A DNA stretch of 15,456 nt from positions 1 to 15,456 of the forward strand of contig CAWHXD010000018.1 in the NCBI GenBank assembly GCA_963833225.1. The letters are read 5' to 3'. The position numbers and the translations under genes were made by a program. Below are positions 1-13,965 of the stretch, piece by piece; within the stretch, counting starts at the first letter, position 1; each line of letters opens with the position of its first letter. This stretch comes from an uncultured Chloroflexia bacterium. Its GTDB lineage: Bacteria > Chloroflexota > Limnocylindria > Limnocylindrales > CSP1-4. Under the pieces are notes generated by a model. It was given only the letters and a program-made list of their open reading frames with translations. It had not been told where the DNA came from and made no database searches.

Positions 1-511
1 CTACGTGGTCGCCTACCCGGTCAACACGGGTGAGATCGCGGCGTACAACACCCAACTCGCGGCCGACGGGATCACCGACCCCGTGACCGGCAATGCGTCG
101 ATCTCCACGCTCGACAACAAAGGCGGCCTGATGACCGCGTGGTGCATCCAGTGCCACACGCGGTACAACGGCAACTGGTCGGTACAGGGAGACCCGGGGA
201 GCCAAAGCCTCGGAGTGGCTTCGCTCTACGACAACTCCGGTGGCGACTCCCGGTTCATGTACAAGCATGGAACCACCCGCATCGGCTGCGAGCAGTGCCA
301 TGTGTCGCACGGCTCGAATGCAGCGATGACCGGCTCCAACAGCTTCGCCTACGTAGACCCGAACGGCGACGTTCCGCCGACGGTCGGCGTCTCCGGCGAC
401 AGCCGCCTGCTCAAGGCGGACAACCGCGGTACCTGCCAGTTGTGCCATGACCCGACGGGCACGATCACGGCCGGCACGTACATCGGCCCGCTGCCGACCC
501 CGGGCAACTAG
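1..511 (+). CDS. Multiheme c-type cytochrome, C-terminal part (5'-truncated by window edge); OmcS/CwcA-like motif pattern
   Basis: Open frame from position 2 (YVVAYPVN...) to TAG at 509-511. Three CxxCH motifs: WCIQCH, CEQCHVSHGS, CQLCH. Followed by a GC hairpin. Confidence 0.9.
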   Translation, partial: YVVAYPVNTGEIAAYNTQLAADGITDPVTGNASISTLDNKGGLMTAWCIQCHTRYNGNWSVQGDPGSQSLGVASLYDNSGGDSRFMYKHGTTRIGCEQCHVSHGSNAAMTGSNSFAYVDPNGDVPPTVGVSGDSRLLKADNRGTCQLCHDPTGTITAGTYIGPLPTPGN

Positions 512-533
512 CCCTCATCCATCAGCAATCGCT

Positions 534-567
534 TCCCGGCGGCCACGGTTCACCCGGGCCGCCGGGG
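534..567 (+). terminator. GC-rich stem-loop after the first cytochrome gene (terminator or mRNA-stabilising hairpin)
   Basis: CCCGGCGGCC (535-544) and its exact reverse complement GGCCGCCGGG (557-566), about 23 nt after the stop. No U-tract. Confidence 0.55.
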
Positions 568-704
568 CACCCACTCAGCCAGGCAGGACCCTGCTTCATG
601 CGCCGTTCTCGTCCCCTCCGACGGTCGCTGCTCACGCCGGTGGTCTCGGCCCCGGCGATGCCGCCTGCCACGCGGCGTGTGAATACGCTCATCGGAGCAC
701 GTCC

Positions 705-2556
705 GTGACGTCCCGTCGCCGCTTCACCCTTCGCCTCAGCACGGCCCTGGCCGCCGGCCTGCTGGTTGTCAGCGCGATGACGACCACCACACCGATGGTC
801 GCGTCCGTTCGTGCCAGTGAATTCGACCCCGGATCCATCGGCATCGGCGGCCCCGACAGCGAGTCCCAAACCCACCGTGGCGCCCACCTCGACGCCTTCG
901 CCGGACCCGGCGCCGACCCCGTCACCAGATCCGGCACCGTCGGCTTCGCCCACCGTCACCGCGTCGCCCACCGCGTCCCCCACGCCTGCCCCCGCGCCAT
1001 CCACGACCGCGTCCCCGTCAGCGGCTCCGAGCGTGTCTCCGTCGCCCAGCGCGTCGCTCGGACCATCGCCCGAGCCATCGCCGTCGCCCAGCGCGTCGCT
1101 CGGACCATCGCCCGAGCCATCGCCATCGAGCGAACCGTCGGCGTCGCCGCCGGTGGAGCCATCGCCCTCCGCGTCATCTTCGGCGGACCCATCGATGGAG
1201 CCCTCCCCCTCGATCACACCGGAGCCGACGCCCTCAACCGGGATCGAGGTCGTCCATACGTGGGTCGACACCACGGACGCGACGGGCACGGTGGTGCAGA
1301 GCGGCGCGACCGACGCCTCGCTGAGCGCGATGGAGCAATTCGTCGTGTACGAGCTGCGCTTCGAGGTCCTCAACTCCGGGGACACGGAGGTCCAGCTCGA
1401 CCCGACGCTCGAAGCCGGAACCGGCTCCAGCCCCGACGCGTGGGCCGTGGTCCCGACCGTGGATCCGGTACCGGGCCAGCCGTTCTACGCCGCCTCCGAT
1501 GACGGCCGGACGTTCAAGGTCCGAGCCGCGCCGATCGATCCCTCGGCCTTCCGGTCACCGGCGCCCCCGACACCCGACGCGCAGGTCGACGCGCAGGCCG
1601 CTGCGCAGCCCGTTGCGGGGATCACAAGCGCCGGCATGAACCCCGCACCGACCATCACACTGCCCGCCCACACGTACACCGAGATCGAGTTCGCGTTCCG
1701 CGCGACGATCAGCGCAGCGTGGACGCAGACGTACTCGCTCCGCCTCCAGCCCGCGGACGAGACCGTTGCGGCCGGCACGCCGCTGACGGTGACGATGCGT
1801 GCCCGTCCGGCGATCAGGCTGACACTCCCCGCATCGACGACGCGTGACGACCCGACCGGTCTCGCCACCGGGTTCCAGCTGGCGGCCGTCACCGCCCCCT
1901 CGGGCGGGGTGCTGTACCCGCTGTCGGCCACCGTCGACCCCGACTCGCCGCACATCGTCGCCTCGCTCACCTCGGACGGATGCGCCGCCTGCCATGCCGC
2001 CCATACAGGCATCCAGCAGAGCCTGCTCTCGGGTGTCTACCGGCTCGATCCGCTCAAGAGCTGGACGGAGGCGTATGACGGCGCCGACTTCGCGCTGTGC
2101 ATCTCGTGCCACGCCGAAGAGCCGTTCGCGGACCTCAGCGGCAGCCTGAATGCCGGCACGAGCTTCGCGGGCCACGGATACCACATGGGCAACATCGAGG
2201 ACACGGGCACGGGCGGCCTGGACATCACGGTGGCAGGCGACGGCGAAGGCAACGCCCTGTGCGGCGAGTGCCACTACAACCTTCACGGCGTCCCGACTTC
2301 CGAGCGCGGCCTGGTGGTCTTTGCGCCCGACGTCGAGCCCTACAACGACGAGATCAGCTACGACGAGGCGACCGGTTCCTGCACGCTGACGTGCCACGGG
2401 CGCGAGCATGACGGGCTGACCTTCGCGACGCCACCGCCCACGCCGACTCCTACGCCGAAGCCGACGCCGACCCCCACGCCGACCCCGACCCCCACGCCTA
2501 CGCCGACCTCCACCCCCACGCCCACGCCCACGCCCACGCCCACGCCCGGGATCTGA
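705..2556 (+). CDS. Secreted multiheme cytochrome c with Pro/Ser/Thr-rich stalk, beta-rich middle domain and (Pro-Thr)n tail; +1 frameshift at ~820-823
   Basis: GGAG (694-697) precedes GTG 705, encoding signal peptide MTSRRRFTLRLSTALAAGLLVVSAMTTTTPMVASVRA-SE. Removing one base in GAATTCG (819-825) joins it to the 811..2556 frame (STPDPSASAAP...), giving ~616 aa. Heme motifs CAACH, CISCH, CGECH and atypical CTLTCH. Confidence 0.8.
1039..1122 (+). repeat. Perfect 42-bp tandem duplication (2 copies) encoding PSPSASLGPSPEPS in the stalk
   Basis: ccgtcgcccagcgcgtcgctcggaccatcgcccgagccatcg at 1039-1080 and 1081-1122. Confidence 0.95.
2428..2547 (+). repeat. Degenerate 6-bp coding repeat (ACN CCN)n encoding the Pro-Thr tail
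   Basis: Translates as TPPPTPTPTPKPTPTPTPTPTPTPTPTSTPTPTPTPTPTP just before the stop. Confidence 0.9.
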
Positions 2557-2784
2557 CACCGCGTCTGTATCTCCCGATACAGCCCATTCCCGCGGTATCC
2601 ACCCAACAGCCCTGCCGGGTCCCGGCCGAAATGTGCGGCCTGACAGATGGGCTCGAGGCTCGCCACTCCGGACAATGCCCTCAGGTGTCAAGCCGCGGCG
2701 ATCCGCGGCATCAGATGAGGGATCCACGATGAACCGGCTGCCACGGCGCAACTCCCGTTGCGCGCGTCCCGGGGGAGGCCGCGA
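2557..2784 (+). promoter_or_regulatory. Structured intergenic/leader region upstream of the TPR-ccdA-resB-ccsA-resA operon
   Basis: Inverted repeats CTGTATC/GATACAG (2565-2582), GCCGCGG/CCGCGGC (2692-2709) inside CCCTCA/TGAGGG (2678-2721), and GCGCAAC/GTTGCGC (2746-2763). RBS GGAGG at 2774-2778. Confidence 0.45.
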
Positions 2785-4086
2785 GTGAATGCGCGCGTGC
2801 TCCCCGCCACGCGACACGCCGCCCTGGAGAACGAGCTGCTCTCGCAGCTCGGTCTGCCACCAAGCGCGTCGCCCGAAGACGTCGATGCACTCCATGAAGC
2901 CGCGAGCGAGTACCTCGCGGCTGCGCCCTCGAGCCTCCGCGGATGGGCCCACGCCCAGGCCTCGGCGCTCGATTCGGCGTACCTCAAGCTAACCGACCCG
3001 GTCGGTCTCGAGGGCTCGGCCCTCAGGAGCCCGACGAGGCCGCCGACGGTCGTACCCGGCGGGCCGGCGACACCTCCGGCCCGCCGGGATTCCGTCCCGG
3101 CCACCACGATCCCCGCGGTCGCCGACACGCTCGACGATGACGTCGTGGACGACGACCTGATCGACGACGACACGTACGACGACGAGGAGATCGGCACCGA
3201 CTTCGACTCGCTGTACGCCGCGGTCACGCCCAGCGCGCACGCGGACATGGCCCCCGACGCGAAGCCCAGGCGCCGCGCTCGTGCGGCGGCGCCCGCCCCA
3301 TCGAAGGGGGTTCGGTCCCGCCGGCGCGCGGACGTGACGGCATCGGAACCCGCGTCCGGTGGGATCTGGAAGAAGATCGCGCTCGGGGGTGCGGCGGTGA
3401 TCGCCGTGTTCGCGATCGGCTTCGGGGCCAACGCGATCGTCAACGGCAACAACGCCGAGCCGGCCCCGACCCCCGATGTGGCACAGGCCAGCCCGAGCGC
3501 GCCGGCGGTCGACCAGGCCCAGGTCGCCCAACTCATGACGAAGTACGCAGCGGACCCGAACGACACCACCACGCTGCTCGGCCTCGCCGACGCGTTCTAT
3601 GCCGGCCAGGACTACTCGAGCGCGGGCGAGTGGCTGGACAAGCTGCTCGCGATCGATCCCAAGAACGTCCAGGCGCTGCTGGCGAAAGGCGCGGTCAGCT
3701 TCAACCTCGGCGACCTTCCGACGGCCGAATCCACCTGGAAGCAGGTGGCGGACATCGCGCCCGACAACGTCGAGGTCCACTACGACCTGGGCTTCCTGTA
3801 CCTCAACCAGACGACGCCCGATTGGGCGGGTGTCCAGAGCGAATGGACGAAGGTCATCCAGCTCGATCCGGGCTCGGATCTGGCACAGACGGTCCAGGCG
3901 CATCTCGATGCCCTGGTCGCCGCCTCGATGATCCCGGCCTCACCCGGTGCCCCGGCCTCACCCGCGGCCAATGGTTCCCCCGTTGCGTCCCCGGCTGCCT
4001 CTGAGACCCCGGCCCCGCCGGCCGCATCCCCGGCCGCGTCCCAGCCGGCCGCCTCTCCGGCGCCGACCGGGAGCGCCACGCCATGA
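2785..4086 (+). CDS. Membrane-anchored tetratricopeptide-repeat protein (CcmI/NrfG-like apocytochrome chaperone candidate) with N-terminal degenerate J-like domain
   Basis: GGAGG then GTG 2785. Acidic and basic linker, one TM helix (IALGGAAVIAVFAIGFGANAIV), TPR signatures (LADAFYAGQDYSSAGEWLDKLLAIDPKNVQALLAKG; VHYDLGFLY; VIQLDPGS). Stop overlaps the ccdA start (ATGA 4083-4086). Confidence 0.8.
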   Translation: MNARVLPATRHAALENELLSQLGLPPSASPEDVDALHEAASEYLAAAPSSLRGWAHAQASALDSAYLKLTDPVGLEGSALRSPTRPPTVVPGGPATPPARRDSVPATTIPAVADTLDDDVVDDDLIDDDTYDDEEIGTDFDSLYAAVTPSAHADMAPDAKPRRRARAAAPAPSKGVRSRRRADVTASEPASGGIWKKIALGGAAVIAVFAIGFGANAIVNGNNAEPAPTPDVAQASPSAPAVDQAQVAQLMTKYAADPNDTTTLLGLADAFYAGQDYSSAGEWLDKLLAIDPKNVQALLAKGAVSFNLGDLPTAESTWKQVADIAPDNVEVHYDLGFLYLNQTTPDWAGVQSEWTKVIQLDPGSDLAQTVQAHLDALVAASMIPASPGAPASPAANGSPVASPAASETPAPPAASPAASQPAASPAPTGSATP

Positions 4087-4865
4087 GCGATCTCGGCAGC
4101 GCGCTCGGCCTCGGCATCGCCTTCACCGGCGGCGTCGTGTCGTTCGCGTCCCCGTGCTGCCTGCCGCTGGTACCGGCCTACCTCAGCTACATGGTCGGTG
4201 CGACCGGCGATGGAGCGTCCGGCCGCAGGACCGCGTTCCTGCACGGGCTGGCGTTCACGATCGGGTTCTCGCTGGTGTTCGTGGCCTTCTGGGCCTCGAT
4301 CGGCGCCATCGGCTACGTGCTGGCCGACAACAAGCGTCTGCTGACGATGGCCGGCGGCGCGCTGCTCGTGTTCCTCGGGCTCCAGGTCGCGGGCGTGATC
4401 AACGTCCGGGCCCTGTGGCGCGACACCCGGGCCATGCCCGCCACGGGCGGAACGCTCGTGGCGGCCGGCGGACCGGGTATGGGCCTCCGGGGCGTGGGTG
4501 GCGTGCTCGGCGGCACCGGCGGCTCGCCGTCCTACAACCGGTCGTTCGTGTTCGGTCTCCTGTTCGCGGCCGGGTGGAGCCCGTGCATCGGGCCCATCCT
4601 GGGCGGGATCCTGGGGCTCGCGACGGCAACCTCGAGCGTGCTCCAGGGAACGATGCTGCTGATCGCGTACGCCGCCGGCCTGGCCGTCCCGTTCCTGGCC
4701 GTCGCGCTCGGAGCGTCCTGGGTCTCGCGCCGCCTGACCTGGATCGGCCGCCACCACCACATCGTCTCACTCGCCACCGGCGCACTGCTCGCGACGGTCG
4801 GGGTGCTGATGCTCACCAACACGCTCAGCCGGCTGGCGACCATCGCGTCGCCGTTCGGCCTGTAG
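4083..4865 (+). CDS. ccdA: Cytochrome c biogenesis protein CcdA (DsbD-like transmembrane thiol-disulfide transporter)
   Basis: Motifs SFASPCCLPLVPAYL and GWSPCIGPILG, about 6 TM helices, System II context. Confidence 0.95.
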   Translation: MSDLGSALGLGIAFTGGVVSFASPCCLPLVPAYLSYMVGATGDGASGRRTAFLHGLAFTIGFSLVFVAFWASIGAIGYVLADNKRLLTMAGGALLVFLGLQVAGVINVRALWRDTRAMPATGGTLVAAGGPGMGLRGVGGVLGGTGGSPSYNRSFVFGLLFAAGWSPCIGPILGGILGLATATSSVLQGTMLLIAYAAGLAVPFLAVALGASWVSRRLTWIGRHHHIVSLATGALLATVGVLMLTNTLSRLATIASPFGL

Positions 4866-4877
4866 GAGGTCGTTCGG

Positions 4878-6344
4878 ATGACCCACGAAGGCTCCCGGCC
4901 GCTGCCCCCGGCGGCGGTCCCCGCCGTGCGGGAAGCCGCGAGGACCGGCGTGGTTGATCGCATCGACCGCGTGCTCGAAGGCCTCTGGCACCTCCTGTCG
5001 TCGATGCGCGTGGCGATCGTGCTGATGCTGGCCATCGCCGCGCTCGGCGTGCTGGGCGCGGTGATCATCCAGGCGCCGTCGGGTGTCCTGAACGACCCGT
5101 CGGCGAAGGCCGACTGGCTGTCCCAGGTCCGTCCGAAGTACGGCGGCTGGACATCGATCATGGACTTCTTCCAGTTGTTCCAGATCTTCAACTCCGTGCT
5201 GTTCCGGGTCCTCGTCGCCGGGCTGACGATCAGCCTCATCGCCTGCTCGATCCACCGGACACCGGGTATCTGGCAAACGATCACCAGGCCCCGCCTTGAC
5301 GTCGGACCCGCGTTCTTCGAGCACGCACCCCAGCACGAAGCGGTCGTGGTCCGGCATTCACCGGCCGAGACGCTCGGCATTGTGAATGGGGTCCTGCAGG
5401 GGCGGCACTACCGGACTCTGGCCCACGACGACGGCGTGATCCATGTCTACGGAGACCGCTTCCGTTGGGTCCAGTTCTCCGGCGTGGTCGCCCACCTGTC
5501 GCTGGTCGTGATCCTGGCCGGCGCCATCATCGGGGCGATGTTCGGCTACCGCGACAGCGGCTTCACGATCGCCGAGGGCAGCACGCTGCCGGTGGCGGCC
5601 GAGGCAGGGCTGTCGCTCCAGCTGATCGACTTCACAGACACCTACTACACCGACAGTGGCATGCCCCAGGACTACGCCAGCCAGGTCGTCCTGTACAAGG
5701 ACGGCCAGGAGGTCGCCCGCCACACCATCCGGGTCAACGACCCGCTGCGCTACGGCGACACGACCTTCTACCAGGCTTTCTTCGGATCGGCGGCGGTCAT
5801 GACCGTCAAGGACTCGACCGGCAAGACCCTGGTGTCGGAAGGCGTGCCGCTGGCCTGGACCACCACGGCCGACAACCGGCCGATCGGCTCGTTCACCATC
5901 CCAGGCACGAACTATGTGGGCTGGGTCGTGGGGACGCTCGGCGCCAACGACGCCACCATCCAGCCCGGCCAGATGCAGCTCGAGCTGTACACCGCGGACA
6001 GCGGCCGGGAGGTGGCCCAGCAGGTGCTTGACCAGGGCACGCCAGCGACGATGGAGGGCCTGACGGTCAGCTTCGACCGCGAGAGCCAGTTCACCGGCCT
6101 GAGTGTCTCACGCGATCCCGGCGTGACCCTCGTCTGGCTGGGAGCATTCCTCCTGGTCGCCGGGTTCACCCTCCGCTTCCTGCTTCCGCACAAGCGGATC
6201 TGGGCGCGCATCTCGCCCCGGGCCAACGGTGGCGCGGTGCTGGCAGTGGCGAGCCTCGGCAGCCGCGACGCTGCGCTGGGAACCGAATTCCAAGGTCTTG
6301 TGAGCGACATCCGCGGGGCGTTGCATACGCCGGCGCGGTCCTGA
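4878..6344 (+). CDS. resB: Cytochrome c biogenesis protein ResB (CcsB/Ccs1)
   Basis: LSSMRVAIVLML N-terminus, third TM with conserved His (VAHLSLVVIL), large extracytoplasmic domain with IRVNDPLRY, C-terminal RDPG+TM. RBS GGAGG upstream. Confidence 0.93.
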   Translation: MTHEGSRPLPPAAVPAVREAARTGVVDRIDRVLEGLWHLLSSMRVAIVLMLAIAALGVLGAVIIQAPSGVLNDPSAKADWLSQVRPKYGGWTSIMDFFQLFQIFNSVLFRVLVAGLTISLIACSIHRTPGIWQTITRPRLDVGPAFFEHAPQHEAVVVRHSPAETLGIVNGVLQGRHYRTLAHDDGVIHVYGDRFRWVQFSGVVAHLSLVVILAGAIIGAMFGYRDSGFTIAEGSTLPVAAEAGLSLQLIDFTDTYYTDSGMPQDYASQVVLYKDGQEVARHTIRVNDPLRYGDTTFYQAFFGSAAVMTVKDSTGKTLVSEGVPLAWTTTADNRPIGSFTIPGTNYVGWVVGTLGANDATIQPGQMQLELYTADSGREVAQQVLDQGTPATMEGLTVSFDRESQFTGLSVSRDPGVTLVWLGAFLLVAGFTLRFLLPHKRIWARISPRANGGAVLAVASLGSRDAALGTEFQGLVSDIRGALHTPARS

Positions 6345-6356
6345 GGGAGATCCGAC

Positions 6357-7244
6357 ATGGATAAGATGGCCGGCTACGCGTTCGTGGCGGCGATGTTCAG
6401 CACCGGTCTCGCGATCTTCGTCTACCTGCTGTACGCAATCTCCGGTCTGCGGGCCGCCCGGATGCAGACCGCCGGCGCCCCGGGATCCACCGGGGCGATG
6501 GGCTTCGTGTCCGGGCCCCGAACCGCCTCGATGGGGCGCTACGCGACGATCCTCGGCTGGCTGGCCGTGGTCGCGCTCCTCATGAGCCTCGTGTTCCGCG
6601 CCATCGCCACGGGCCATGGCCCGTTCGCGAACATGTACGAGTTCTCGGTCGCGTTCGCGTTCGGGATCCTGGCGGCCTACATGTGGTTCGAGCGCCGGTA
6701 CCACCAGCGGATCCTGGCGCTGGTCGCCCTGCCCGTCGCGCTCGCCATGATGCTCTACGCATGGACGATCCAGGGGCCCATCGAGCCGCTCGTCCCGGCG
6801 CTTCAGAACAACCTGCTGCTCACCGTCCATGTCGCCGTCGCGATCGTCGCCTACGGCAGCTTCTCGATCGCGTTCGCGGCCGCCGTCCTGTACCTGATCC
6901 AGCCCGAGGGCGGCCGCTGGGGCCTGCCCAAGCCGCAGGTGCTGGACGAGATCGGCTACCGTGCCGTGGTCGTCGGCTTCCCCTTCCTGAGCCTCACGAT
7001 CATCCTCGGCGCGGTGTGGGCCGACGTCGCCTGGGGCAGCTACTGGAGCTGGGACCCCAAGGAGACGGCGTCGCTGGTGACCTGGCTGATCTACGGTGCG
7101 TACCTCCACGCCCGCGTCATGCGCGGCTGGCGCGGCAACCGGGCGGCCTGGCTCCTGATGCTCGGCTTCGCGGCCACGCTCTTCACCTATTTCTTCATCA
7201 ACCTGTTCGCGCCCGGCCTCCACAGCTACGCGGGCCTGAGCTGA
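6357..7244 (+). CDS. ccsA: Cytochrome c synthase / heme exporter CcsA (ResC; named ccsB in some annotation schemes)
   Basis: WWD domain WADVAWGSYWSWDPKET, HGPFANMYE, LTVHV, AYLHAR and C-terminal GLHSYA histidines. Confidence 0.96.
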   Translation: MDKMAGYAFVAAMFSTGLAIFVYLLYAISGLRAARMQTAGAPGSTGAMGFVSGPRTASMGRYATILGWLAVVALLMSLVFRAIATGHGPFANMYEFSVAFAFGILAAYMWFERRYHQRILALVALPVALAMMLYAWTIQGPIEPLVPALQNNLLLTVHVAVAIVAYGSFSIAFAAAVLYLIQPEGGRWGLPKPQVLDEIGYRAVVVGFPFLSLTIILGAVWADVAWGSYWSWDPKETASLVTWLIYGAYLHARVMRGWRGNRAAWLLMLGFAATLFTYFFINLFAPGLHSYAGLS

Positions 7245-7273
7245 CCCGTGCGGAACGGAAGGGAGCGATCGCG

Positions 7274-7873
7274 ATGAACGCTGCGGGCGTCGCCGCGAGG
7301 CCGTCCCGCCGCGGGGCCGGCCCCCTCCAGACGATCGTCGTCATCGCCGTCACGGCCGTCCTCATCGGGGCCGTGACCTGGCTCGTGGCGGGTCCGGGCA
7401 CCGACGACGGGGTGACGTCGATCGACCTCGGCGCCAACGCTGCCGGCGCGGCGCCGGTGGTCGGGGCGATCCCCCCGGACTTCACGGCCATGACGTGGGA
7501 CGGCCAGACCGTCTCACTCTCCGACTACGCCGGCAAGCCGATCTGGCTGACGTTCGGCGCCTCGTGGTGCCCTGATTGCCGGACGGAAGCTCCGGACGTC
7601 GAGGCCACCTACCAGGCATACAAGGATCAGGGGCTGGTCATCCTCGCCGTGTTCATCGATGAGAGCGGCGCGGACATCGGCACCTACGCACAGCGTGCGG
7701 GTCTCACCTTCCCGATCGCGGTCGACCAGAACGAGACGATCGCCGGGACCTATCGCACCCTCGGCATCCCGACCCACTTCTTCATCGGCACCGACGGACG
7801 CATCAAGGACGTGCGCATCGGTGCCCTGCCCAAGACCGAGATGGATCGCGCCGTCTCGGAGATCGTCAACTAG
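7274..7873 (+). CDS. resA: Membrane-anchored TlpA/ResA-family thiol-disulfide oxidoreductase
   Basis: GAAGGGAG then ATG 7274. N-terminal TM, PDFT, ASWCPDCRTEAP active site, GIPTHFFIGTDG cis-Pro loop. Confidence 0.9.
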   Translation: MNAAGVAARPSRRGAGPLQTIVVIAVTAVLIGAVTWLVAGPGTDDGVTSIDLGANAAGAAPVVGAIPPDFTAMTWDGQTVSLSDYAGKPIWLTFGASWCPDCRTEAPDVEATYQAYKDQGLVILAVFIDESGADIGTYAQRAGLTFPIAVDQNETIAGTYRTLGIPTHFFIGTDGRIKDVRIGALPKTEMDRAVSEIVN

Positions 7874-7883
7874 GCACGCACGA

Positions 7884-9611
7884 GTGACCGATCCCACCGT
7901 GCCCGGCGATTCGGTCCCCGCGGTGGCAGGGCCCGATTCCGGAGGGGCAGCCGACGACGCACCCCGAGCGGCGGTGGCCAGCACCAATTCCGAGGCCGCC
8001 GACGACACCCCGCCCGCGGCGGAAGCCGGCAGCGCCCCGCCTGCCGAGCCCGCACGACCCCGCCACCCCTTCTACCTGCGCGGTCGCCGGCCACGGCTTC
8101 CCTCCTCGCGGAGCGGCCTGTTCGCCCTGCTCCTCGTGCTCAGCGGTCTCGGTGCCGTCGCGACCTTCTCGGCCGTGTCGCTGCTCAACTGGACCGAGAC
8201 GGCGGACTTCTGCGGTCGCTGCCACACCATGGCCCCCGAGCTCGCGGCCTACGAGGCCGGCCCGCACCGCGATGTCGCCTGCGCCGAGTGTCATGTCGAA
8301 CCGGGCATCGCGGGCTGGATCAAGGCCAAGCTCAACGGCACGCGGCAGCTGATCGAGGTGGTCCTGGGCACCTTCCCGGAGCCGATCCCGCCACCCGACC
8401 ACTCCCAGCTTCCGGGTGCGGCGGTCACGTGCCAGAAGTGCCATGCGGTCGAGTCCCACCCGGTCACCACGCTCAAGACGGCCACGATGTACGCAGAGGA
8501 CGAGACCAACACCCGGCAGTTCGTGGGGCTCCTGATCCGCCCCAGCGGTGGCGACCCGTTCGACGTCACCAAGAGCGTCCACTGGCACGTCCTGCGCACC
8601 GTCAACTACTGGTCGCCGTACGTCAACGGCGCGCAGATCGATCTCGTCGAAGAGACCGAGGACGACGGCACGGTGAAGCAGTTCATCAGCCAGGCGGAGA
8701 TCACCGACACGTCCAACGTCGCGCCGGACGTGGCCGCCATCCAGGCAACGCAGACGTCGACCACGATGTCGTGCTACGACTGCCACAACCGTGTCGGCCA
8801 TCCGATCCCGAATCCGCGTGCCGGACTCGATCATGACCTCCTGGTCAACGCCATCGACCCCACCCTCCCGTACATCAAGCGCGAAGGGATGCGGATCCTG
8901 TGGGCCTCGTACCCGGACGATGCCGCGGCCGATGCCGCGGCCGACGAGCTGGCCTCCTTCTACGCCATGAACTACCCCGACGTCGCCCAGGCCAAGTCCC
9001 AGCAGATCGGCCAGGCGATCAGCGCGATCAAGGTGCTGTACCGGTTGACGGCCACACCCGAGATGAAGGTCACCGCGAAGACCTACCCCGACAACCTCGG
9101 CCACCTCGACTTCCCCGGCTGCTTCCGGTGCCACGACGGCGGCCACTTCCTGGTCGAGAACGGCGTCGTGACCAACAAGACCATCCCGTCCACCTGCGAC
9201 ACCTGCCACACCTTCCCCCAGATCGGGCCCGCGGTCGCCAGCCTGCCACTGGGTGCGCCACCATCGACGCACGACGACGAGCTGTGGGTGTTCAACCACA
9301 AGAATGTCGCGACGAGCATCGACCCGGGGGGCACCTCGTGCGGCGAGTGCCACGCTCGTGACTACTGCGTCAACTGCCACTCCACCGGGGCCGTGACCGT
9401 CGACCACGACGAGATGGCCACCAACCACGCCAAGGTCATCCGCGCGCAGGGCAACACTGCCTGTGCCTACTGCCACCAGCCGGTGTTCTGCGCGCGCTGC
9501 CACAACGAGCCGGTGCTGCCGGTGACGACGCCCTTCTCGGAGGGGCCAACCACCCAGAACCTGCCCGACCAGCCGTCCGGCGTCAGCTGGCCGCTGACGC
9601 CGAGAGGCTGA
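7884..9611 (+). CDS. NapC/NirT-family membrane-anchored decaheme cytochrome c (ImcH-like quinol dehydrogenase)
   Basis: Likely GTG start at 7884, just after the resA stop. One TM then ETADFCGRCHTM (CxxCHxM, NapC/NrfH heme 1). Ten CxxCH: CGRCH, CAECH, CQKCH, CYDCH, CFRCH, CDTCH, CGECH, CVNCH, CAYCH, CARCH. Confidence 0.9.
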   Translation: MTDPTVPGDSVPAVAGPDSGGAADDAPRAAVASTNSEAADDTPPAAEAGSAPPAEPARPRHPFYLRGRRPRLPSSRSGLFALLLVLSGLGAVATFSAVSLLNWTETADFCGRCHTMAPELAAYEAGPHRDVACAECHVEPGIAGWIKAKLNGTRQLIEVVLGTFPEPIPPPDHSQLPGAAVTCQKCHAVESHPVTTLKTATMYAEDETNTRQFVGLLIRPSGGDPFDVTKSVHWHVLRTVNYWSPYVNGAQIDLVEETEDDGTVKQFISQAEITDTSNVAPDVAAIQATQTSTTMSCYDCHNRVGHPIPNPRAGLDHDLLVNAIDPTLPYIKREGMRILWASYPDDAAADAAADELASFYAMNYPDVAQAKSQQIGQAISAIKVLYRLTATPEMKVTAKTYPDNLGHLDFPGCFRCHDGGHFLVENGVVTNKTIPSTCDTCHTFPQIGPAVASLPLGAPPSTHDDELWVFNHKNVATSIDPGGTSCGECHARDYCVNCHSTGAVTVDHDEMATNHAKVIRAQGNTACAYCHQPVFCARCHNEPVLPVTTPFSEGPTTQNLPDQPSGVSWPLTPRG

Positions 9612-9699
9612 CCTACCGGAGGAGCTGCCGTTTCTCCGCGGGTCCTGACTGACCTTGGCGTCACCATCGGAGGCACGAGACCCGGCACCGATACGCCGA

Positions 9700-9889
9700 T
9701 CGGGCCGGCGGGCTGATCACCCGCTGATCATCCGGGCAAACGCCCCGTACCCGCCGAACGATCGCTCCGCGCGCAAATGTGCCGTTTCTATATCCATCCG
9801 CACATTCCGTCGCCACGGTCGTCGCTCGCACAATGTCGGTCCATCAGGAGGGCTGCGATGGGCCATTGGGCCTGTCGCCGGAGGCTGCG
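9700..9889 (+). promoter_or_regulatory. Probable promoter/operator region of the Rieske-cytb-decaheme operon
   Basis: GCTGATCA direct repeat (9712-9719, 9723-9730), inverted repeat AATGTGC-N17-GCACATT (9776-9806) around an AT-rich core, and -10-like CACAAT at 9829-9834. Confidence 0.4.
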
Positions 9890-10426
9890 ATGGACCACGA
9901 CCCCGCGACCGCGCCCGAGCCAGGGCAGTTGCCGGCGCCGGACGCCGTCACGCCGCTCGGGTCTCCGTCCGGCTCAGCGACTCCCGGTCCCCAAGGGATC
10001 CAGTCCCGGCGACGGTTCCTCGCCTGGCTCGGCGGGTTCACCGTGTTCTCGACGGTCGCGATGATCACGACGCCGATCCTCGGGTTCCTCGTCCCGCCCA
10101 GGACGAGCGGCACGTCCGGTGGCGGGAAGGTCCTGGTCGCCACGACGGCCGACATCCCTCCCGGCGCCGGCAAGGTCGTCGCCCTGGGCAGCAAGCCGGC
10201 GATCGTCGTCAGCACCGAGCAGGGCCTCCACGCATTCTCGGCGATCTGCACCCACCTCGGGTGCGTCGTGGCCTGGAACGACCTGGCCGGCGTCATCCAG
10301 TGCCCGTGCCACGATGGCCGCTTCAACCCCGTCTCAGGCACGGTCGTGTCCGGCCCGCCCCCGGCACCGCTGCCCGCGCTCAAGGTCTCCGTGGAAGGCG
10401 ACCAGATCTTTCTGAGCGAGGCCTGA
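9890..10426 (+). CDS. qcrA: Rieske [2Fe-2S] subunit of a menaquinol:cytochrome c reductase (QcrA/PetC-like)
   Basis: GGAGG (9880-9884) then ATG 9890. Tat-type anchor SRRRFL+TM, box I CTHLGC, box II CPCHDG, GPPPAPL. Confidence 0.92.
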   Translation: MDHDPATAPEPGQLPAPDAVTPLGSPSGSATPGPQGIQSRRRFLAWLGGFTVFSTVAMITTPILGFLVPPRTSGTSGGGKVLVATTADIPPGAGKVVALGSKPAIVVSTEQGLHAFSAICTHLGCVVAWNDLAGVIQCPCHDGRFNPVSGTVVSGPPPAPLPALKVSVEGDQIFLSEA

Positions 10427-10427
10427 G

Positions 10428-11504
10428 ATGGCGGCCGGCGGCACCACCGATCGCGCCGTGGGATCCGGCAGCTGGATCGAGCAACGGACCGGCGTCGGAC
10501 CGGTGATGGCTGCGCTGCTTCACGTCCGGATCCCGATGTCGGCCCGGACGATGTACTTCGGCGGGATCGCCCTGTTCCTGTTCGGCATCCAGGTCGTCAC
10601 GGGCACGTTGCTCGCGCTGTACTACAAGCCCACCCCCGAGGCCGCCTACGAGAGCGTCCAGTTCGTGACCAGCGACGTCAGCTTCGGGTGGCTGATCCGG
10701 AGCATGCACCACTGGGCTGCGAACCTGATGATCCTGTTCGTTGCCCTGCATCTCCTGCGGGTCTTCTTCCAGGCGGCGTACAAGTACCCGCGGGAGCTGA
10801 CCTGGGTCATCGGCGGCGGCCTGCTCCTGGTGACCCTCGGCTTCGGGTTCACCGGATACCTCCTGCCTTGGGACCAGCGGGCGTACTGGGCCACCGTCGT
10901 GGGTACCGACATCGCCGGATCCGTTCCCGTGGTCGGCGACTCGCTCCTCCAGCTGCTGCGCGGCGGTGCGGACGTCACTGGTGACACCATGAGCCGGTTC
11001 TTCGGGATCCACGTGCTGGTGCTGCCGCTCGCCCTGGCCGGTCTCATGGCGATCCACCTGGTGCTGGTCCACCAGCTCGGCCTGGCCAACCCCAAGAAGC
11101 CCGAGCCGCGAGTCCGCCCGGCTGCGGTCGACCGGGAGCCGCTCCGGCCGTTCTTCCCGAACTACCTCCTTGACGAGGTGGTCGCTTGGTACGTCATCCT
11201 CGCGATCCTCGTGGTCCTCGCCTCGGTCTTCCCGGCCGGTTTGGAGGGGCAGGCGAACCCGCTCGAGACACCCGCGCACATCAAGCCCGAGTGGTACTAC
11301 CTCGCGGTCTACCAGCTGCTCAAGATCATCCCGCGCACGATCGCCGTGATGGCCCCGATCATCGGCATCGGCCTGCTCATCGCGTGGCCCTTCCTGGACC
11401 GCAACCCCGAGGTGCTGGCACGACGGCGCAAGCTGGCCGTCGCGGGGGCCACGCTGGTGGTGGTGGGGGTGATCGTCCTGACGGTGTGGGGTTATGTCAG
11501 CTGA
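10428..11504 (+). CDS. qcrB: Cytochrome b subunit (fused b6 + subunit IV type) of the Rieske/cytb complex
   Basis: RSMHHWAANLMILFVALH, GYLLPWDQRAYWATVVG, FFGIH...MAIH, PFFPNY, and Qo motif KPEWY. Confidence 0.95.
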   Translation: MAAGGTTDRAVGSGSWIEQRTGVGPVMAALLHVRIPMSARTMYFGGIALFLFGIQVVTGTLLALYYKPTPEAAYESVQFVTSDVSFGWLIRSMHHWAANLMILFVALHLLRVFFQAAYKYPRELTWVIGGGLLLVTLGFGFTGYLLPWDQRAYWATVVGTDIAGSVPVVGDSLLQLLRGGADVTGDTMSRFFGIHVLVLPLALAGLMAIHLVLVHQLGLANPKKPEPRVRPAAVDREPLRPFFPNYLLDEVVAWYVILAILVVLASVFPAGLEGQANPLETPAHIKPEWYYLAVYQLLKIIPRTIAVMAPIIGIGLLIAWPFLDRNPEVLARRRKLAVAGATLVVVGVIVLTVWGYVS

Positions 11505-13056
11505 GATCCGCCGGCCGATGTTCGGTCGCCGCTCCCCGGCTGCGCGGGGCGTGAGGGCCGCCCTGACCCTCGGCGTGCTCGGCCTCGCGTGGTTCGCGCT
11601 CGCGTTCACGGCGGCCGCCCAGGACCCGAGTGGCTCGCCAGCCGCATCCAGCAGCACCGAGGCCACGCCTTCGCCGAAGGCGACCCCAGCACCGTCCGAT
11701 TTCGACTGGCTGTTCGCGACGCCGCTCCCGACCGCGACCGTCCCGCTCGCATCGGCGCCACCGGTCCCTGCACCGCTCACGCACGCCCCGGCCGATGGCG
11801 CCAACGGATGCTACGACTGCCACAGCGTCGTGAACGACAAGCAGGCGGCGATCGCCGCCGATTGGCAGGACAGCGCCCATGGCCAGGCCGGCGTCACGTG
11901 CGCCGACTGCCATGGGGGAGACCCGCGTTCCGACCAGATCACGGTGGCCATGGACCCGTCGAACGGGTTCGTCGGCGCACCCGACCGCCTGGGGAGCGTC
12001 GGGCTGTGTGGCAGCTGTCACGCGGACGTGAACCGGATGAAGGCCTCCGGTCTGCCGACCGACCAGTACGCGAAATACTGGTCGAGCGTGCACGGACAGC
12101 AGCTGTTGACCGCAGATGACAACCGGGTGGCGATCTGCACGGATTGCCATGGATCTCACACCGTCAAGAAGGTCTCGGACCCGAGCTCCCCGGTGTTCAT
12201 CCTCAACGTCCCGGAGCTGTGCGCCGGCTGCCATGCCGACGCCGATCGGATGGCACCTTACGGCATCCCGACGGACCAGTACGCCATCTACTCCAAGAGC
12301 GTCCACGGCGTCGCGCTGCTCGACAACAAGGACGTCCGGGCACCGAGCTGCGCGTCCTGCCATGGTTCGCATGACGCGAAGCCACCCACGTCCGCAACGG
12401 TGGTCGGCGTGTGCGGCAAGTGCCACACGGCAACCGAGGATCTCTACCAGCAGAGCCGACACTCCGAGCTCCAGGCGGCAGCGCCCCAGTGCTGGACCTG
12501 CCACGGCACCCATGACGTCACGCAGCCGGGCTCCTACATGTTCTTCCACCCGACTCCGCCCGAGTACACGTGCGACACGTGTCACGACCTGCAGACACAC
12601 ACGCTCCGCCTCGAGCTCAGCCGGTTCACGAACGAGGCCGATCGGCGATGTGACACGTGCCATCACCCCGATTCGCAGATCTACGCGCAGATCGACGGGA
12701 TCAGCAACGCCATCACATCGGCAGAGGACGCCTACACCCAAGCCCAGGACACGATCCAGCGCGCGGCGGGGCTGGGCATGATCACGTCCGACGCGGAGGT
12801 GAAGCTGACCGACGCGAAGACGAGCCTCATCCAGGCACAGGCCGCCGTTCACACGACGAAGCTGAGCAAGATCGCGGAGCTGTCGACCGATGCCACGACG
12901 AAGGCCCAGGCGGCCGAGGCGATCGCGACCGGCAAGATCGACGAAAGCGTGTTCCGGCGTGAGGCGATGGTCGTCGTCCTCGCGTTCATCGCGTTCAACG
13001 CGCTGTTCCTGTACGTCCTGAAGCGCCGGCTGGACAGGGACCTCGAGAAGGGCTGA
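11494..13056 (+). CDS. Decaheme cytochrome c with signal peptide and C-terminal membrane anchor (third subunit of the Rieske/cytb complex)
   Basis: Overlaps the cytb stop. Signal peptide ending AAA-QD, P/S/T linker, ten CxxCH (CYDCH, CADCH, CGSCH, CTDCH, CAGCH, CASCH, CGKCH, CWTCH, CDTCH, CDTCH), Ala-rich helical region, C-terminal TM + KRR. Alternative start ATG 11518. Confidence 0.92.
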   Translation: MSAEIRRPMFGRRSPAARGVRAALTLGVLGLAWFALAFTAAAQDPSGSPAASSSTEATPSPKATPAPSDFDWLFATPLPTATVPLASAPPVPAPLTHAPADGANGCYDCHSVVNDKQAAIAADWQDSAHGQAGVTCADCHGGDPRSDQITVAMDPSNGFVGAPDRLGSVGLCGSCHADVNRMKASGLPTDQYAKYWSSVHGQQLLTADDNRVAICTDCHGSHTVKKVSDPSSPVFILNVPELCAGCHADADRMAPYGIPTDQYAIYSKSVHGVALLDNKDVRAPSCASCHGSHDAKPPTSATVVGVCGKCHTATEDLYQQSRHSELQAAAPQCWTCHGTHDVTQPGSYMFFHPTPPEYTCDTCHDLQTHTLRLELSRFTNEADRRCDTCHHPDSQIYAQIDGISNAITSAEDAYTQAQDTIQRAAGLGMITSDAEVKLTDAKTSLIQAQAAVHTTKLSKIAELSTDATTKAQAAEAIATGKIDESVFRREAMVVVLAFIAFNALFLYVLKRRLDRDLEKG

Positions 13057-13073
13057 CGCGGGGGCGCTCAGCC
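13051..13073. terminator. Hairpin spanning the convergent stops of the decaheme gene and fdhD
   Basis: GGCTGA-CGC-gggg-GCG-c-TCAGCC. Confidence 0.35.
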
Positions 13074-13922: not shown

Positions 13923-13965
13923 GGCGGGATCGTACCCGGCTCACGTCGCGGACCATACTCAGGCC
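13923..13965. promoter_or_regulatory. Back-to-back promoters for probably leaderless fdhD and PPOX transcripts
   Basis: TACGAT on the - strand (13934-13929) and CATACT on the + strand (13954-13959), each exactly 6 nt before its ATG. No SD for either gene. Confidence 0.6.

What the first reader, a model, noticed from the sequence alone, without database searches (positions are those of the whole stretch)
1..13056. Self-contained multiheme quinol-to-surface electron conduit with its own maturation system and no porin gene
Seen: eleven co-oriented genes, most tightly spaced or overlapping. They encode two probably extracytoplasmic multiheme cytochromes, a TPR protein, full System II (CcdA/ResB/CcsA/ResA), a decaheme NapC/NirT protein, and Rieske + cytb + an anchored decaheme, with at least 26 CxxCH plus one CxxxCH. 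Established: NapC/CymA/ImcH and Rieske/cytb proteins oxidise the quinol pool, and surface multihemes mediate extracellular electron transfer (EET) in Geobacter, Shewanella and Thermincola. Inference: a complete EET module for metal, humic, electrode or partner-cell exchange in a probably monoderm high-GC lineage, using membrane anchors and P/S/T stalks rather than an MtrB porin.
Basis: partly seen in the sequence, partly recalled or inferred. Interest (0 to 1): 0.9.

Follow-up and report, generated by a model that had tools for sequence, protein, structure and literature searches.

The report
Multihaem electron-wire gene cluster, Chloroflexota
This contig carries most of a gene cluster that lets an uncultured soil and salt-marsh Chloroflexota bacterium without an outer membrane link its membrane quinone pool to a chain of haem proteins outside the cell membrane, probably to exchange electrons with minerals or other outside partners.

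Summary
There are eleven co-oriented genes with 26 CxxCH plus one conserved CxxxCH. They encode a System II set, an NrfH-like decahaem, and Rieske + cytochrome b + an anchored decahaem.

Corrections:
- The window is a whole 15.4-kb contig that cuts the cluster.
- In a 99.5%-identical MAG the first gene is a secreted hexahaem. Upstream lie a sensor kinase/NarL-type regulator, a Tat-type Rieske protein, a TPR protein and an NHL propeller, with no porin.
- Gene 2 is split from its signal peptide by one base at 820.
- The contig is probably mis-binned. The MAG's own orthologous locus lies on contig C7.

The core module is NapC-like cytochrome + hexahaem + NHL/TPR. It is accessory (29 of 121 family genomes) and co-inherited. 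The Rieske/cyt b/decahaem trio is an optional add-on.

No Omp85 was found in 6 genus genomes and no NrfA in 5. No terminal reductase lay in 8 distant neighbourhoods.

Extracellular electron transfer is the best reading (about 0.5). Direction and partner are not shown. It is a new variant of known kinds (Thermincola chain, Geobacter ext cluster).

The parts
2..511 (+). 3' end (169 codons, 3 CxxCH) of a secreted hexahaem cytochrome gene (g1), cut by the contig end
   Evidence: Paired_CXXCH_1, 30.1 bits. The full gene in the 99.5%-identical MAG is 461 aa with an N-terminal signal-like helix and 6 CxxCH. It has 10 free His for 6 haems.
705..2556 (+). g2, a secreted tetrahaem cytochrome. In order: signal peptide (705-819), one-base frame break at 820, 135-aa P/S/T/A linker, two Ig-like domains, 3 CxxCH + CTLTCH, PT tail
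   Evidence: The linker is 112 of 135 residues P/S/T/A. The AF2 N-domain has pLDDT about 90, and Foldseek gave only generic beta-sandwich matches. 19 relatives of the short tetrahaem form exist at 46-85% identity.
2758..4086 (+). Membrane TPR protein with one predicted helix. Its stop overlaps the ccdA start (ATGA). Possibly an apocytochrome chaperone. Start codon uncertain
   Evidence: TPR_11 at 44.5 bits; TPR_CcmH_CycH at 30.4 bits, below its cut-off of 42. for the helix. It lies upstream of ResB in 22 of 22 informative loci.
4083..4865 (+). CcdA (DsbD-type thiol reductant transporter) of System II
   Evidence: PF02683, 46.9 bits (cut-off 27.1). Matched in 17 of 22 informative related loci.
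4878..6344 (+). ResB/CcsB-type haem-handling protein of System II (cluster-specific copy)
   Evidence: PF05140, 249.5 bits; three ResB genes in the MAG (C18, C7, C6).
6357..7244 (+). CcsA/ResC haem lyase subunit of System II with a W-rich WGSYWSWDPKE motif
   Evidence: PF01578, 157.2 bits. (TIGR03144, 232 bits, cut-off 187.6). Motif read.
7274..7873 (+). ResA-like membrane-anchored thioredoxin (WCPDC)
   Evidence: AhpC-TSA, 88.7 bits. (ResA NF002854, 106.1 bits, below its cut-off of 170)..
7884..9611 (+). NapC10, a decahaem with one N-terminal membrane helix. It has an NrfH/NapC-like quinol-site module (first motif CGRCHTM = CxxCHxM) and six further haems
   Evidence: PF03264, 46.4 bits, profile positions 3-99 of 174; NrfH 2j7a_C, E 2.8e-7.
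9779..10426 (+). Rieske [2Fe-2S] subunit of b6f type, with an SRRRFL Tat-like motif, a membrane helix, and CTHLGC / CPCHDG boxes. Start codon uncertain
   Evidence: (b6f Rieske 8hn2_A, E 2.7e-21).
10428..11504 (+). Cytochrome b, a fused b6 + subunit-IV-like form. Seven predicted helices, Hx13H and Hx14H haem ligands, PEWY motif
   Evidence: cytochrome b6 6rqf_I, E 1.3e-54; best family ExtP, 237.9 bits, cut-off 290 not met. Motifs read.
11494..13056 (+). Decahaem cytochrome c. In order: signal peptide, P/S/T/A linker, 10 CxxCH, Pro-free Ala-rich stretch of about 90 aa, C-terminal membrane helix. It sits where c1/f sits in bc operons
   Evidence: It overlaps the cyt b stop by 11 bases. 388 cluster representatives match at E<=1e-30.
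13068..13922 (-). FdhD (formate dehydrogenase sulfurtransferase), a conserved convergent neighbour. Not shown to be part of the module
   Evidence: PF02634, 220.1 bits. It lies downstream of the decahaem in 24 of 24 loci that have the full arrangement.

Best explanation
The window is most of an accessory gene cluster of a Limnocylindrales (probably CSP1-4) Chloroflexota bacterium. These genomes lack outer-membrane biogenesis genes. A two-component system appears to regulate the cluster.

Proposed mechanism:
- The cluster builds a chain of c-type multihaem cytochromes outside the cytoplasmic membrane.
- It connects that chain to the menaquinone pool at two points. One is an NrfH/CymA-like decahaem (NapC10). 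The other is a b6-type Rieske/cytochrome b complex whose c subunit is a C-terminally anchored decahaem.
- A dedicated second System II (CcdA, ResB, CcsA, ResA) and a TPR protein mature the roughly 30 haem sites.
- A secreted hexahaem and a secreted tetrahaem (an octahaem in relatives), carrying P/S/T linkers and Ig-like domains, form the distal part.
- Membrane-anchored NHL-propeller and TPR proteins, encoded just upstream of the contig end, are proposed to hold them in place.

Most likely the chain carries respiratory electrons from menaquinol to acceptors beyond the membrane (Fe/Mn minerals, humic matter, a partner cell) when oxygen is scarce.

Shown: gene content, motifs, predicted topology, synteny, co-inheritance, and absence of a porin or reductase gene. 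Inferred: localisation in the wall, the scaffold role of NHL/TPR, direction of flow, and the acceptor.
For: 1. Parts and motifs: 26 CxxCH + 1 CxxxCH; CxxCHxM at haem 1 of NapC10; Rieske boxes; PEWY in cyt b. All four cytochromes have enough free His for bis-His haems: 10 for 6, 8 for 4, 14 for 10, 12 for 10.
2. Topology: single N- or C-terminal helices on NapC10, the decahaem, both TPR proteins and the NHL protein (own Kyte-Doolittle scan). g2 has a linker that is 83% P/S/T/A and two confidently modelled Ig-like domains.
3. Upstream in the 99.5%-identical MAG, all on the same strand: GAF-HisKA_3 kinase, LuxR/NarL-type regulator, Tat-type Rieske protein, TPR protein, NHL propeller, hexahaem. 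No porin.
4. Envelope: Omp85 in 0 of 6 genus genomes, two of them single-contig, against 7 diderm controls that all ring.
5. Accessory and co-inherited: NapC10 is in 29 of 121 family genomes and the hexahaem in 24 of 121. All 24 hexahaem carriers have NapC10, none of the 92 NapC10-negative genomes has the hexahaem, and the two genes share a contig in 15 of 24.
6. The NapC-like + TPR + NHL + hexahaem set recurs in other Chloroflexota families (G327, G084, G329), rearranged in G329 and there with an SLT-domain gene next to it.
7. No catalytic partner: no NrfA in 5 genomes. None of 8 distant neighbourhoods has NrfA or a molybdoenzyme beside the cytochromes. Some carry further quinone modules instead, such as cyt b561 + multihaem or multihaem + FeS + NrfD.
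8. Dedicated maturation: cluster-type ResB copies plus a different ResB elsewhere in the genome.
9. Ordinary aerobic chains exist elsewhere in the MAG: two haem-copper oxidases, one next to a long cyt b.
10. Habitat: near-identical DNA in 8 salt-marsh runs at >=0.73 of the sampled words. Two of these were laid and cover nearly the whole window.
11. NHL propellers accompany extracellular cytochrome clusters in Desulfovibrio ferrophilus and in the Uet cluster (passages read).
Against: - No functional datum exists. The RNA-library contigs that match (1-518, 4137-4289, 8319-8517) could be carried-over DNA.
- Haem counts per protein are modest.
- The wall-spanning role of the secreted cytochromes is inferred from linkers alone.
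- The hexahaem model was poor (pLDDT 46.5). Its profile did not find OmcS or any filament cytochrome in the PDB; the best match was MtrA 6r2q_A at E 1.4e-4.
- Rieske/cyt b complexes usually serve high-potential acceptors. Five loci carry Rieske-cyt b-decahaem without the rest, so that trio can work in another context.
- The MAG encodes oxidases that could be the sink.
- Both this locus and its C7 orthologue sit near cytoplasmic formate dehydrogenase genes, whose link to the cluster is unexplained.
- g2 is frame-broken in this sequence.
Confidence: 0.5

Rival explanations
1. Inward electron uptake. The same chain oxidises outside donors such as Fe(II), Mn(II), reduced humics or minerals. Electrons go downhill to the haem-copper oxidases. 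The Rieske/cyt b complex or NapC10 may push some uphill into the quinone pool.
For: The MAG has two haem-copper oxidases and an uptake-type NiFe hydrogenase followed by a multihaem cytochrome. Rieske/cyt b chains are usually high-potential. Near-identical DNA occurs in salt-marsh runs. NHL propellers also occur in the electron-uptake Uet cluster (passage).
Against: No RuBisCO large subunit was found in the MAG or in 3 congeners; only the near-identical MAG G041 has one match, at 151.9 bits. Lithoautotrophy is therefore unlikely, although energy gain without CO2 fixation remains possible. No Cyc2-like or copper oxidase gene lies in the cluster. The regulator pair is of the NarX/NarL type, which is known for anaerobic switches (cut-offs not met).
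Confidence: 0.2
2. A respiratory branch that stays at the membrane. The Rieske/cyt b/decahaem acts as a variant complex III, and NapC10 as a quinol dehydrogenase, feeding the cell's own oxidases or an unlinked reductase. The secreted cytochromes act as carriers or as an electron store.
For: Rieske-cyt b-decahaem occurs alone in 5 of 29 informative loci. The decahaem gene sits where c1/f sits. The decahaem core family is large and spread over several phyla (388 representatives at E<=1e-30; named members from Armatimonadota and Pseudomonadota MAGs).
Against: A separate long cyt b lies next to cox genes, so a housekeeping chain already exists. The module is missing from 92 of 121 family genomes. 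Its own regulator, its own System II, the NHL/TPR proteins, long P/S/T linkers and Ig-like domains are not expected for a plain complex III.
Confidence: 0.2
3. Reduction of soluble metalloid oxyanions such as selenite or tellurite, as proposed for the Geobacter sulfurreducens ext cluster.
For: The best NCBIfam family for the cyt b is ExtP of the 'selenite/tellurite reduction operon' (237.9 bits), and its C-terminal part matches ExtQ (23.7 bits). The ext cluster also places a Rieske protein and cyt b among 10- and 12-haem cytochromes (passages of PMC5877670).
Against: Both scores are below the curated cut-offs (290 and 150). No rhodanese, porin-like ExtI or selenocysteine cytochrome is present. 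The decahaem and NapC10 hit no Ext family. In Geobacter only the porin-like ExtI mutant was tied to that phenotype.
Confidence: 0.07

Closest known systems
Thermincola potens/ferriacetica monoderm chain ImdcA-PdcA-CwcA-OcwA (passages of PMC7911101)
   Same: The cell has no outer membrane. A membrane-anchored decahaem is proposed to oxidise menaquinol. A hexahaem is placed in the wall and further secreted multihaem cytochromes lie beyond it. No porin is involved.
   Different: The passages read mention no Rieske/cyt b complex. In the related Carboxydothermus paper the word Rieske occurs 0 times. CwcA is an OmcS homologue, whereas the hexahaem profile here did not find OmcS in the PDB. This cluster adds NHL and TPR partners, a second System II and a two-component system. 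Homology to the Thermincola proteins was not tested.
Geobacter sulfurreducens extKLMNOPQS genes: ExtO Rieske, ExtP cyt b, ExtQ, and 12-, 10-, 5- and 4-haem cytochromes (PMC5877670)
   Same: A b6-type Rieske/cyt b pair is embedded among decahaem-class cytochromes and linked to an envelope electron conduit. ExtP is the best-scoring curated family for the cyt b here.
   Different: Geobacter is a diderm and has the porin-like ExtI, a rhodanese and a selenoprotein cytochrome. Its cyt b is split (ExtP + ExtQ) but fused here. The curated cut-offs are not met. The function of the Geobacter genes is itself unsettled.
NrfH / CymA / NapC-NirT quinol dehydrogenases
   Same: An N-terminal membrane helix, a CxxCHxM first haem motif, and a PF03264 match above its cut-off. 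NrfH 2j7a_C aligns at E 2.8e-7.
   Different: There are ten haems rather than four, with about 110 residues between the third and fourth motifs and a six-haem C-terminal extension. The NrfH and NapC equivalog cut-offs are not met. No NrfA was found in the genome.
NHL-propeller-containing extracellular cytochrome clusters: Desulfovibrio ferrophilus DFE_448-451/461-465 and the Uet cluster (passages)
   Same: NHL beta-propeller genes sit beside extracellular multihaem cytochrome genes.
   Different: Those organisms are diderms, and Uet has a porin (UetC). Here the propeller has its own membrane helix. No role for the propeller is proven in any of these systems.

Membership tests
System II cytochrome c maturation (CcdA/ResA/ResB/CcsA) | ResB/CcsB haem-handling protein | tested here: met
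   PF05140, 249.5 bits, cut-off 24.6.
System II cytochrome c maturation (CcdA/ResA/ResB/CcsA) | CcsA/ResC with a W-rich haem-binding motif | tested here: met
   TIGR03144, 232 bits, cut-off 187.6. WGSYWSWDPKE read in the translation.
System II cytochrome c maturation (CcdA/ResA/ResB/CcsA) | Thiol-reducing branch: CcdA plus a CxxC thioredoxin | tested here: met
   PF02683, 46.9 bits. AhpC-TSA, 88.7 bits, with WCPDC. The ResA subfamily model scores 106.1, below its cut-off of 170.
NapC/NirT (NrfH, CymA) tetrahaem quinol dehydrogenases | N-terminal membrane helix and family domain | tested here: met
   PF03264, 46.4 bits, cut-off 24.1, but only profile positions 3-99 of 174. Helix at residues 76-103.
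NapC/NirT (NrfH, CymA) tetrahaem quinol dehydrogenases | Small tetrahaem protein reaching the curated equivalog scores | tested here: not met
   NrfH TIGR03153, 48.6 bits against 134.2. NapC/NirT TIGR02161, 25 against 310.6. The protein has ten haems in 575 aa. It works like the family at its N-terminus but is not a member of the equivalogs.
Rieske/cytochrome b (bc1/b6f-type) complex | Rieske boxes CxHxGC and CxCHxS/G-like | tested here: met
   CTHLGC and CPCHDG. PF00355, 53.3 bits. b6f Rieske at E 2.7e-21.
Rieske/cytochrome b (bc1/b6f-type) complex | Cyt b with two His pairs and the Qo-site PEWY motif | tested here: met
   Hx13H, Hx14H and KPEWY read. PF00033, 180.3 bits. Cytochrome b6 at E 1.3e-54.
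Rieske/cytochrome b (bc1/b6f-type) complex | Monohaem c1 or cytochrome f as third subunit | tested here: not met
   The gene in that place encodes a decahaem with a C-terminal anchor. Physical association with the complex was not tested.
Geobacter ExtP/ExtQ (NCBIfam NF040969, NF040970) | Score at or above the curated cut-off | tested here: not met
   237.9 bits against 290, and 23.7 against 150.
Porin-cytochrome conduits (MtrCAB, Pcc) | Outer-membrane beta-barrel sheath | tested here: not met
   No such gene in the window or in the 20 kb upstream of the near-identical MAG. Omp85 in 0 of 6 genus genomes.
Porin-cytochrome conduits (MtrCAB, Pcc) | MtrC/MtrF-type haem domain | tested here: inconclusive
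   PF22113: 30.4 bits for the full hexahaem (cut-off 30, no single stretch passing); 41 bits for the C7 hexahaem; 20.6 bits for g2.
OmcS/CwcA-type filament hexahaems | Sequence or fold likeness to OmcS | tested here: not met
   The profile of 42 relatives found no OmcS chain in the PDB at E<=10. The fold could not be tested because the AF2 model has pLDDT 46.5.

The most novel reading that the evidence does not exclude
An energy-conserving electron outlet through a monoderm wall. In this reading a Q-cycle Rieske/cytochrome b complex has its c1/f subunit replaced by a stalked decahaem that hands electrons directly to wall cytochromes held by NHL and TPR scaffolds. An NrfH-like decahaem serves as a second, non-conserving tap for other potentials. 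If so, abundant soil and sediment CSP1-4 Chloroflexota would respire minerals or humics, or take electrons from them, with a bc-type complex as the coupling site. That has not been shown for any organism.
Probability: 0.25. Interest if true: 0.8.

Novelty: new variant of a known kind. Interest (0 to 1): 0.55.

Why it matters
The organism belongs to Limnocylindrales and probably to CSP1-4. That placement is inferred from record titles and from one paper. The lineage is widespread in soils and sediments, has no cultured member I know of (recalled), and is described in the papers I searched as aerobic, polymer-degrading or nitrate-respiring.

None of the papers returned by my searches describes this cluster.

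If the chain does reach outside partners, about a quarter of the family's genomes (29 of 121) would take part in iron, manganese or humic redox cycling.

It would also give a second, monoderm case in which a Rieske/cyt b complex is wired to multihaem cytochromes. That would make the unresolved role of the Geobacter ext bc-type genes easier to test by comparison.

Tried and rejected
1. 'Two paralogous clusters in one cell' was my reading, and I rejected it. The flanks of the near-identical MAG's cluster match contig C7 of this MAG collinearly at only 75-83% identity, while the window is 99.5% identical to that other MAG. The two cyt b genes also fall in different well-supported groups. C7 is therefore the MAG's own orthologous locus, and the window is probably mis-binned (MAG contamination 3.06%). 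Recent transfer of the whole block cannot be excluded.

2. The hexahaem as an OmcS-like nanowire was not supported. The AF2 model with 42 sequences was too poor to search (pLDDT 46.5). PDB sequence and profile searches found only weak paired-CxxCH matches to MtrA.

3. The fold search of g2 returned only generic Ig-like sandwiches, none at E<=0.001. Its haem part was not modelled (pLDDT below 50).

4. PDB searches with g2 and the decahaem gave low-complexity matches or short NrfA-fragment matches only.

5. RNA evidence is weak. One metatranscriptome-library run has four identical contigs on 4 of 30 bins, and DNA carry-over is possible. Parts without RNA cover say nothing.

6. The indel at 820 stays unresolved. 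In run X2 a contig of depth 14.5 lacks the base, out of a summed depth of 26.9, so the joined frame exists in nature. Whether the window's extra A is an assembly error or an allele cannot be told. Run X1 has almost no cover there. The near-identical MAG has its own one-base gap at 987, which breaks the frame that is open in the window.

7. The SRRRF Tat-like motif in the g2 signal peptide is not conserved in the C7 orthologue, so I drew no conclusion from it.

8. Rfam found nothing in the window.

10. The names of ~420-aa decahaem relatives say only 'cytochrome c3 family protein'. Likeness to Geobacter ExtN could not be tested.

Full report
WHAT IS IN THE WINDOW

The window is a complete 15,456-base contig (C18) of a 3.89-Mb, 20-contig MAG. 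The MAG is 86% complete with 3.06% contamination. GC content is 65-73%.

Eleven + strand genes fill positions 2-13056:
- a 169-codon 3' fragment of a cytochrome gene (g1, 3 CxxCH);
- g2 (3 CxxCH + CTLTCH);
- a TPR membrane protein whose stop overlaps the ccdA start;
- CcdA, ResB, CcsA and a ResA-like thioredoxin;
- a decahaem with a NapC/NirT-type N-terminus (NapC10);
- a b6f-type Rieske protein;
- a fused b6/subunit-IV-type cytochrome b;
- a decahaem with a signal peptide and a C-terminal membrane helix, whose start overlaps the cyt b stop by 11 bases.

The count of 26 CxxCH + 1 CxxxCH is exact. A six-frame scan of the whole MAG found only 11 open frames with three or more CxxCH. Four are here and four are in one other cluster on contig C7.

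Downstream lie FdhD (convergent), a PNPOx-like gene and a truncated Orn/DAP decarboxylase gene. Rfam found nothing.

WHO CARRIES IT

Thirty-two related loci were found, mostly in records titled 'uncultured Chloroflexia', 'Chloroflexi/Chloroflexota bacterium' or 'Candidatus Limnocylindrales'. One record is labelled Actinomycetota and one distant record Hydrogenedentes.

The same order holds a family of 1.0-1.4-Mb genomes. A 2026 paper treats Limnocylindraceae and CSP1-4 as sister clades (passages). From this I infer that the family here is CSP1-4.

Omp85 was not found in this MAG or in five congeners, two of which are single-contig genomes. All seven diderm controls rang. The lineage therefore lacks the usual outer-membrane assembly machinery.

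THE CLUSTER GOES ON UPSTREAM

One MAG (G041) holds the window at 99.5% identity on a 1.37-Mb contig.

There g1 is a 461-aa protein with a signal-like N-terminus and six CxxCH. Upstream of it, on the same strand, lie:
- a membrane GAF-HisKA_3 kinase;
- a LuxR/NarL-type regulator;
- a 153-aa protein with no family match;
- a small Rieske protein with an RRR motif and bc-type boxes;
- a membrane-anchored TPR protein;
- a membrane-anchored NHL propeller.

No beta-barrel gene is there. Further upstream are formate dehydrogenase genes with an in-frame TGA at the usual selenocysteine position.

TWO FLAWS OF THIS COPY

First, g2 is broken. Its signal peptide (GTG at 705, VTSRRRFTLRLSTALAAGLLVVSAM..VRAS) is in a different frame than its body. 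Removing one A at 820, as in G041, joins them. One contig of an independent salt-marsh run also lacks this base, at depth 14.5 out of a summed 26.9. Nineteen relatives of the short tetrahaem form exist, so the gene type is maintained. The C7 orthologue and many relatives have eight haem motifs, and g2 has lost the four middle ones.

Second, the contig is probably mis-binned. The G041 flanks match contig C7 of this MAG collinearly at only 75-83% identity. The C7 cyt b groups with other genomes (support 92/89), while the window's groups with L017, L018 and L022 (support 100/99). C7 therefore carries the MAG's own orthologous cluster, and the window most likely comes from a co-occurring congener. 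I withdraw my earlier reading of two paralogues in one cell.

CONSERVATION AND MODULARITY

Of the 32 related loci:
- 24 have NapC10-Rieske-cyt b-decahaem-FdhD in this order;
- 5 have Rieske-cyt b-decahaem without NapC10 or System II (L036, L037, L039, L040, L043);
- 2 are too short to tell;
- 1 is a distant match.

ResB-CcsA-ResA precede NapC10 in 23 of 23 informative loci. CcdA was matched in 17 of 22.

A single-contig congener (G006) has kinase-regulator-hyp-Rieske-TPR-NHL-hexahaem-7-CxxCH cytochrome-TPR-CcdA-ResB-CcsA-ResA-NapC10-FdhD, but no Rieske/cyt b/decahaem. The trio is thus an add-on, and the core is NapC10 plus the distal proteins.

In one draw of 121 family genomes:
- NapC10 is in 29 and the hexahaem in 24;
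- all 24 hexahaem carriers have NapC10;
- none of the 92 NapC10-negative genomes has the hexahaem;
- the five NapC10-only genomes are assemblies of 150-440 contigs;
- the two genes share a contig in 15 of 24.

Related genomes are not independent, but the carriers span 16 of 49 genera. The decahaem was found in 14 of 24 congeners and in 16 of 91 family genomes in a class-wide draw. NapC10-like genes occur in 30 of 401 Chloroflexota genomes.

In other families the set TPR-NHL-hexahaem-...-System II-NapC10 recurs (G327, G084). A rearranged set in G329 reads kinase, regulator, decahaem, cyt b561, NapC-like, TPR, NHL, hexahaem, SLT-domain gene.

In none of the 8 distant neighbourhoods was NrfA or a molybdoenzyme beside the cytochromes. 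Three had a solitary NapC-like gene. Two had extra quinone modules (multihaem + FeS + NrfD, cyt b561 + multihaem).

THE MATURATION SET IS AN EXTRA ONE

The MAG has three ResB genes: C18, C7, and one on C6 that is 27.6% identical to the window's. Congeners have one or two, and G171 has only one, whose score matches the C6 type.

WHAT ELSE THE HOST HAS

The MAG encodes:
- two haem-copper oxidases, one beside a long cyt b;
- a split b6/subunit IV pair beside a flavoprotein and a cytochrome c-cupredoxin fusion;
- a NiFe hydrogenase followed by a multihaem cytochrome;
- a multihaem-FeS-NrfD set.

No NrfA was found in 5 genomes. No RuBisCO was found in the MAG or in three congeners.

PROTEIN DETAILS

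- NapC10 aligns with NrfH at E 2.8e-7. Its first motif is CGRCHTM, the CxxCHxM form of NrfH (the significance of the Met is recalled knowledge). Equivalog cut-offs are not met.
- The Rieske protein has CTHLGC/CPCHDG boxes and an SRRRFL motif.
- Cyt b has Hx13H, Hx14H and PEWY. It matches cytochrome b6 best. Its best curated family is Geobacter ExtP, below the cut-off.
- The decahaem core family is large: 388 representatives at E<=1e-30, typically about 420 aa. Only some also match the C-terminal Pro-free stretch and anchor.
- The g2 N-domain folds as two Ig-like sandwiches.
- The hexahaem family has over 1,300 members (1,334 at E<=0.001 among 8,000 candidates scored). Its nearest Atlas clusters are mostly from Chloroflexota, Actinomycetota and Bacillota.

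OCCURRENCE

Eight runs labelled salt-marsh metagenome hold >=0.73 of the sampled words. Nine further runs hold 0.20-0.49 (eight salt marsh, one soil). Contigs of two salt-marsh runs cover nearly the whole window, and one soil run covers it in pieces. These runs may include the source sample and may belong to one campaign.

INTERPRETATION

The anatomy fits a regulated, separately matured chain of electron-transfer haems that starts at the quinone pool and ends in secreted, linker-rich proteins of a cell without an outer membrane.

That is how the Thermincola chain is drawn: a membrane decahaem, a wall hexahaem and a surface cytochrome (passages). Having several quinone modules recalls Geobacter. 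The only published cluster I found that joins a b6-type Rieske/cyt b pair to decahaem-class cytochromes and an envelope conduit is the Geobacter ext cluster, whose role is unsettled.

Extracellular electron transfer is therefore the best reading, at about 0.5 outward and a further 0.2 inward. Nothing here shows localisation, direction or partner. A membrane-face respiratory branch remains a real rival (0.2).

IN PRINT

The following searches returned no description of this cluster:
- Limnocylindria + multiheme (2 papers, one read in passages);
- Chloroflexi + multiheme cytochrome + EET + Rieske;
- CSP1-4/Ellin6529/Edaphomicrobia/Limnocylindrales + cytochrome (one read in passages);
- Gram-positive + NHL + multiheme.

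Supplements were not opened, so gene tables there could mention it.

Noticed in passing
whole window (contig C18) versus G000:C7:168945-225830: The window is 99.5% identical to another MAG (G041). The flanks of that MAG's cluster match the host MAG's contig C7 at only 75-83%. The contig is therefore probably mis-binned, and C7 174125-195660 is the host's own orthologous cluster.
   Followed up: yes
L049:6645-8675 (G041, about 12 kb upstream of the window start) and L052:13591-19998 (G000:C7): Formate dehydrogenase genes near both clusters have an in-frame TGA in the motif C(N/A)RT-TGA-HAPSV, the usual selenocysteine position. FdhD lies at the other end of the cluster. No link between the formate dehydrogenase genes and the cytochromes was established.
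   Followed up: partly
L036:5341-8262, L037:2516-5242, L039:5670-8144, L040:5484-8090: In 4 of 4 examined loci that have Rieske-cyt b-decahaem without NapC10, a large flavoprotein gene (Oxidored_FMN + Pyr_redox_2, 825-974 aa open frames) lies just upstream. A flavoprotein partner of that trio is possible.
   Followed up: no
G000:C19:166806-172120 (L057:6806-12120): A split cytochrome b6/subunit IV pair lies between an FAD/FeS protein (Pyr_redox_2 + Fer4_20) and a cytochrome c-cupredoxin fusion. This is another unusual b-type complex in the same MAG.
   Followed up: no
G000:C17:268639-273748 (L059:8639-13748) and G000:C19:382982-386703 (L060:8982-12703): A NiFe hydrogenase operon is followed by a c7-like multihaem cytochrome. 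Separately there is a multihaem-NrfD-FeS-multihaem set, which is a further quinone-linked haem module.
   Followed up: no
L087:14426-15790 (G329): In a distant Chloroflexota version of the module, an SLT lytic-transglycosylase-domain gene follows the hexahaem gene. This could serve to open the wall for assembly.
   Followed up: no
window 1039-1128 and 2426-2547: There is a 42-base tandem repeat (2.1 copies) inside the P/S linker of g2, and 6/18/24-base repeats encoding its PT tail. The near-identical MAG differs in length in these low-complexity parts.
   Followed up: partly
window 13750-13922: The listed PNPOx-like frame (13750-14460, +) overlaps the 5' end of FdhD (13068-13922, -) by about 170 bases. 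Its true start is probably further downstream.
   Followed up: no
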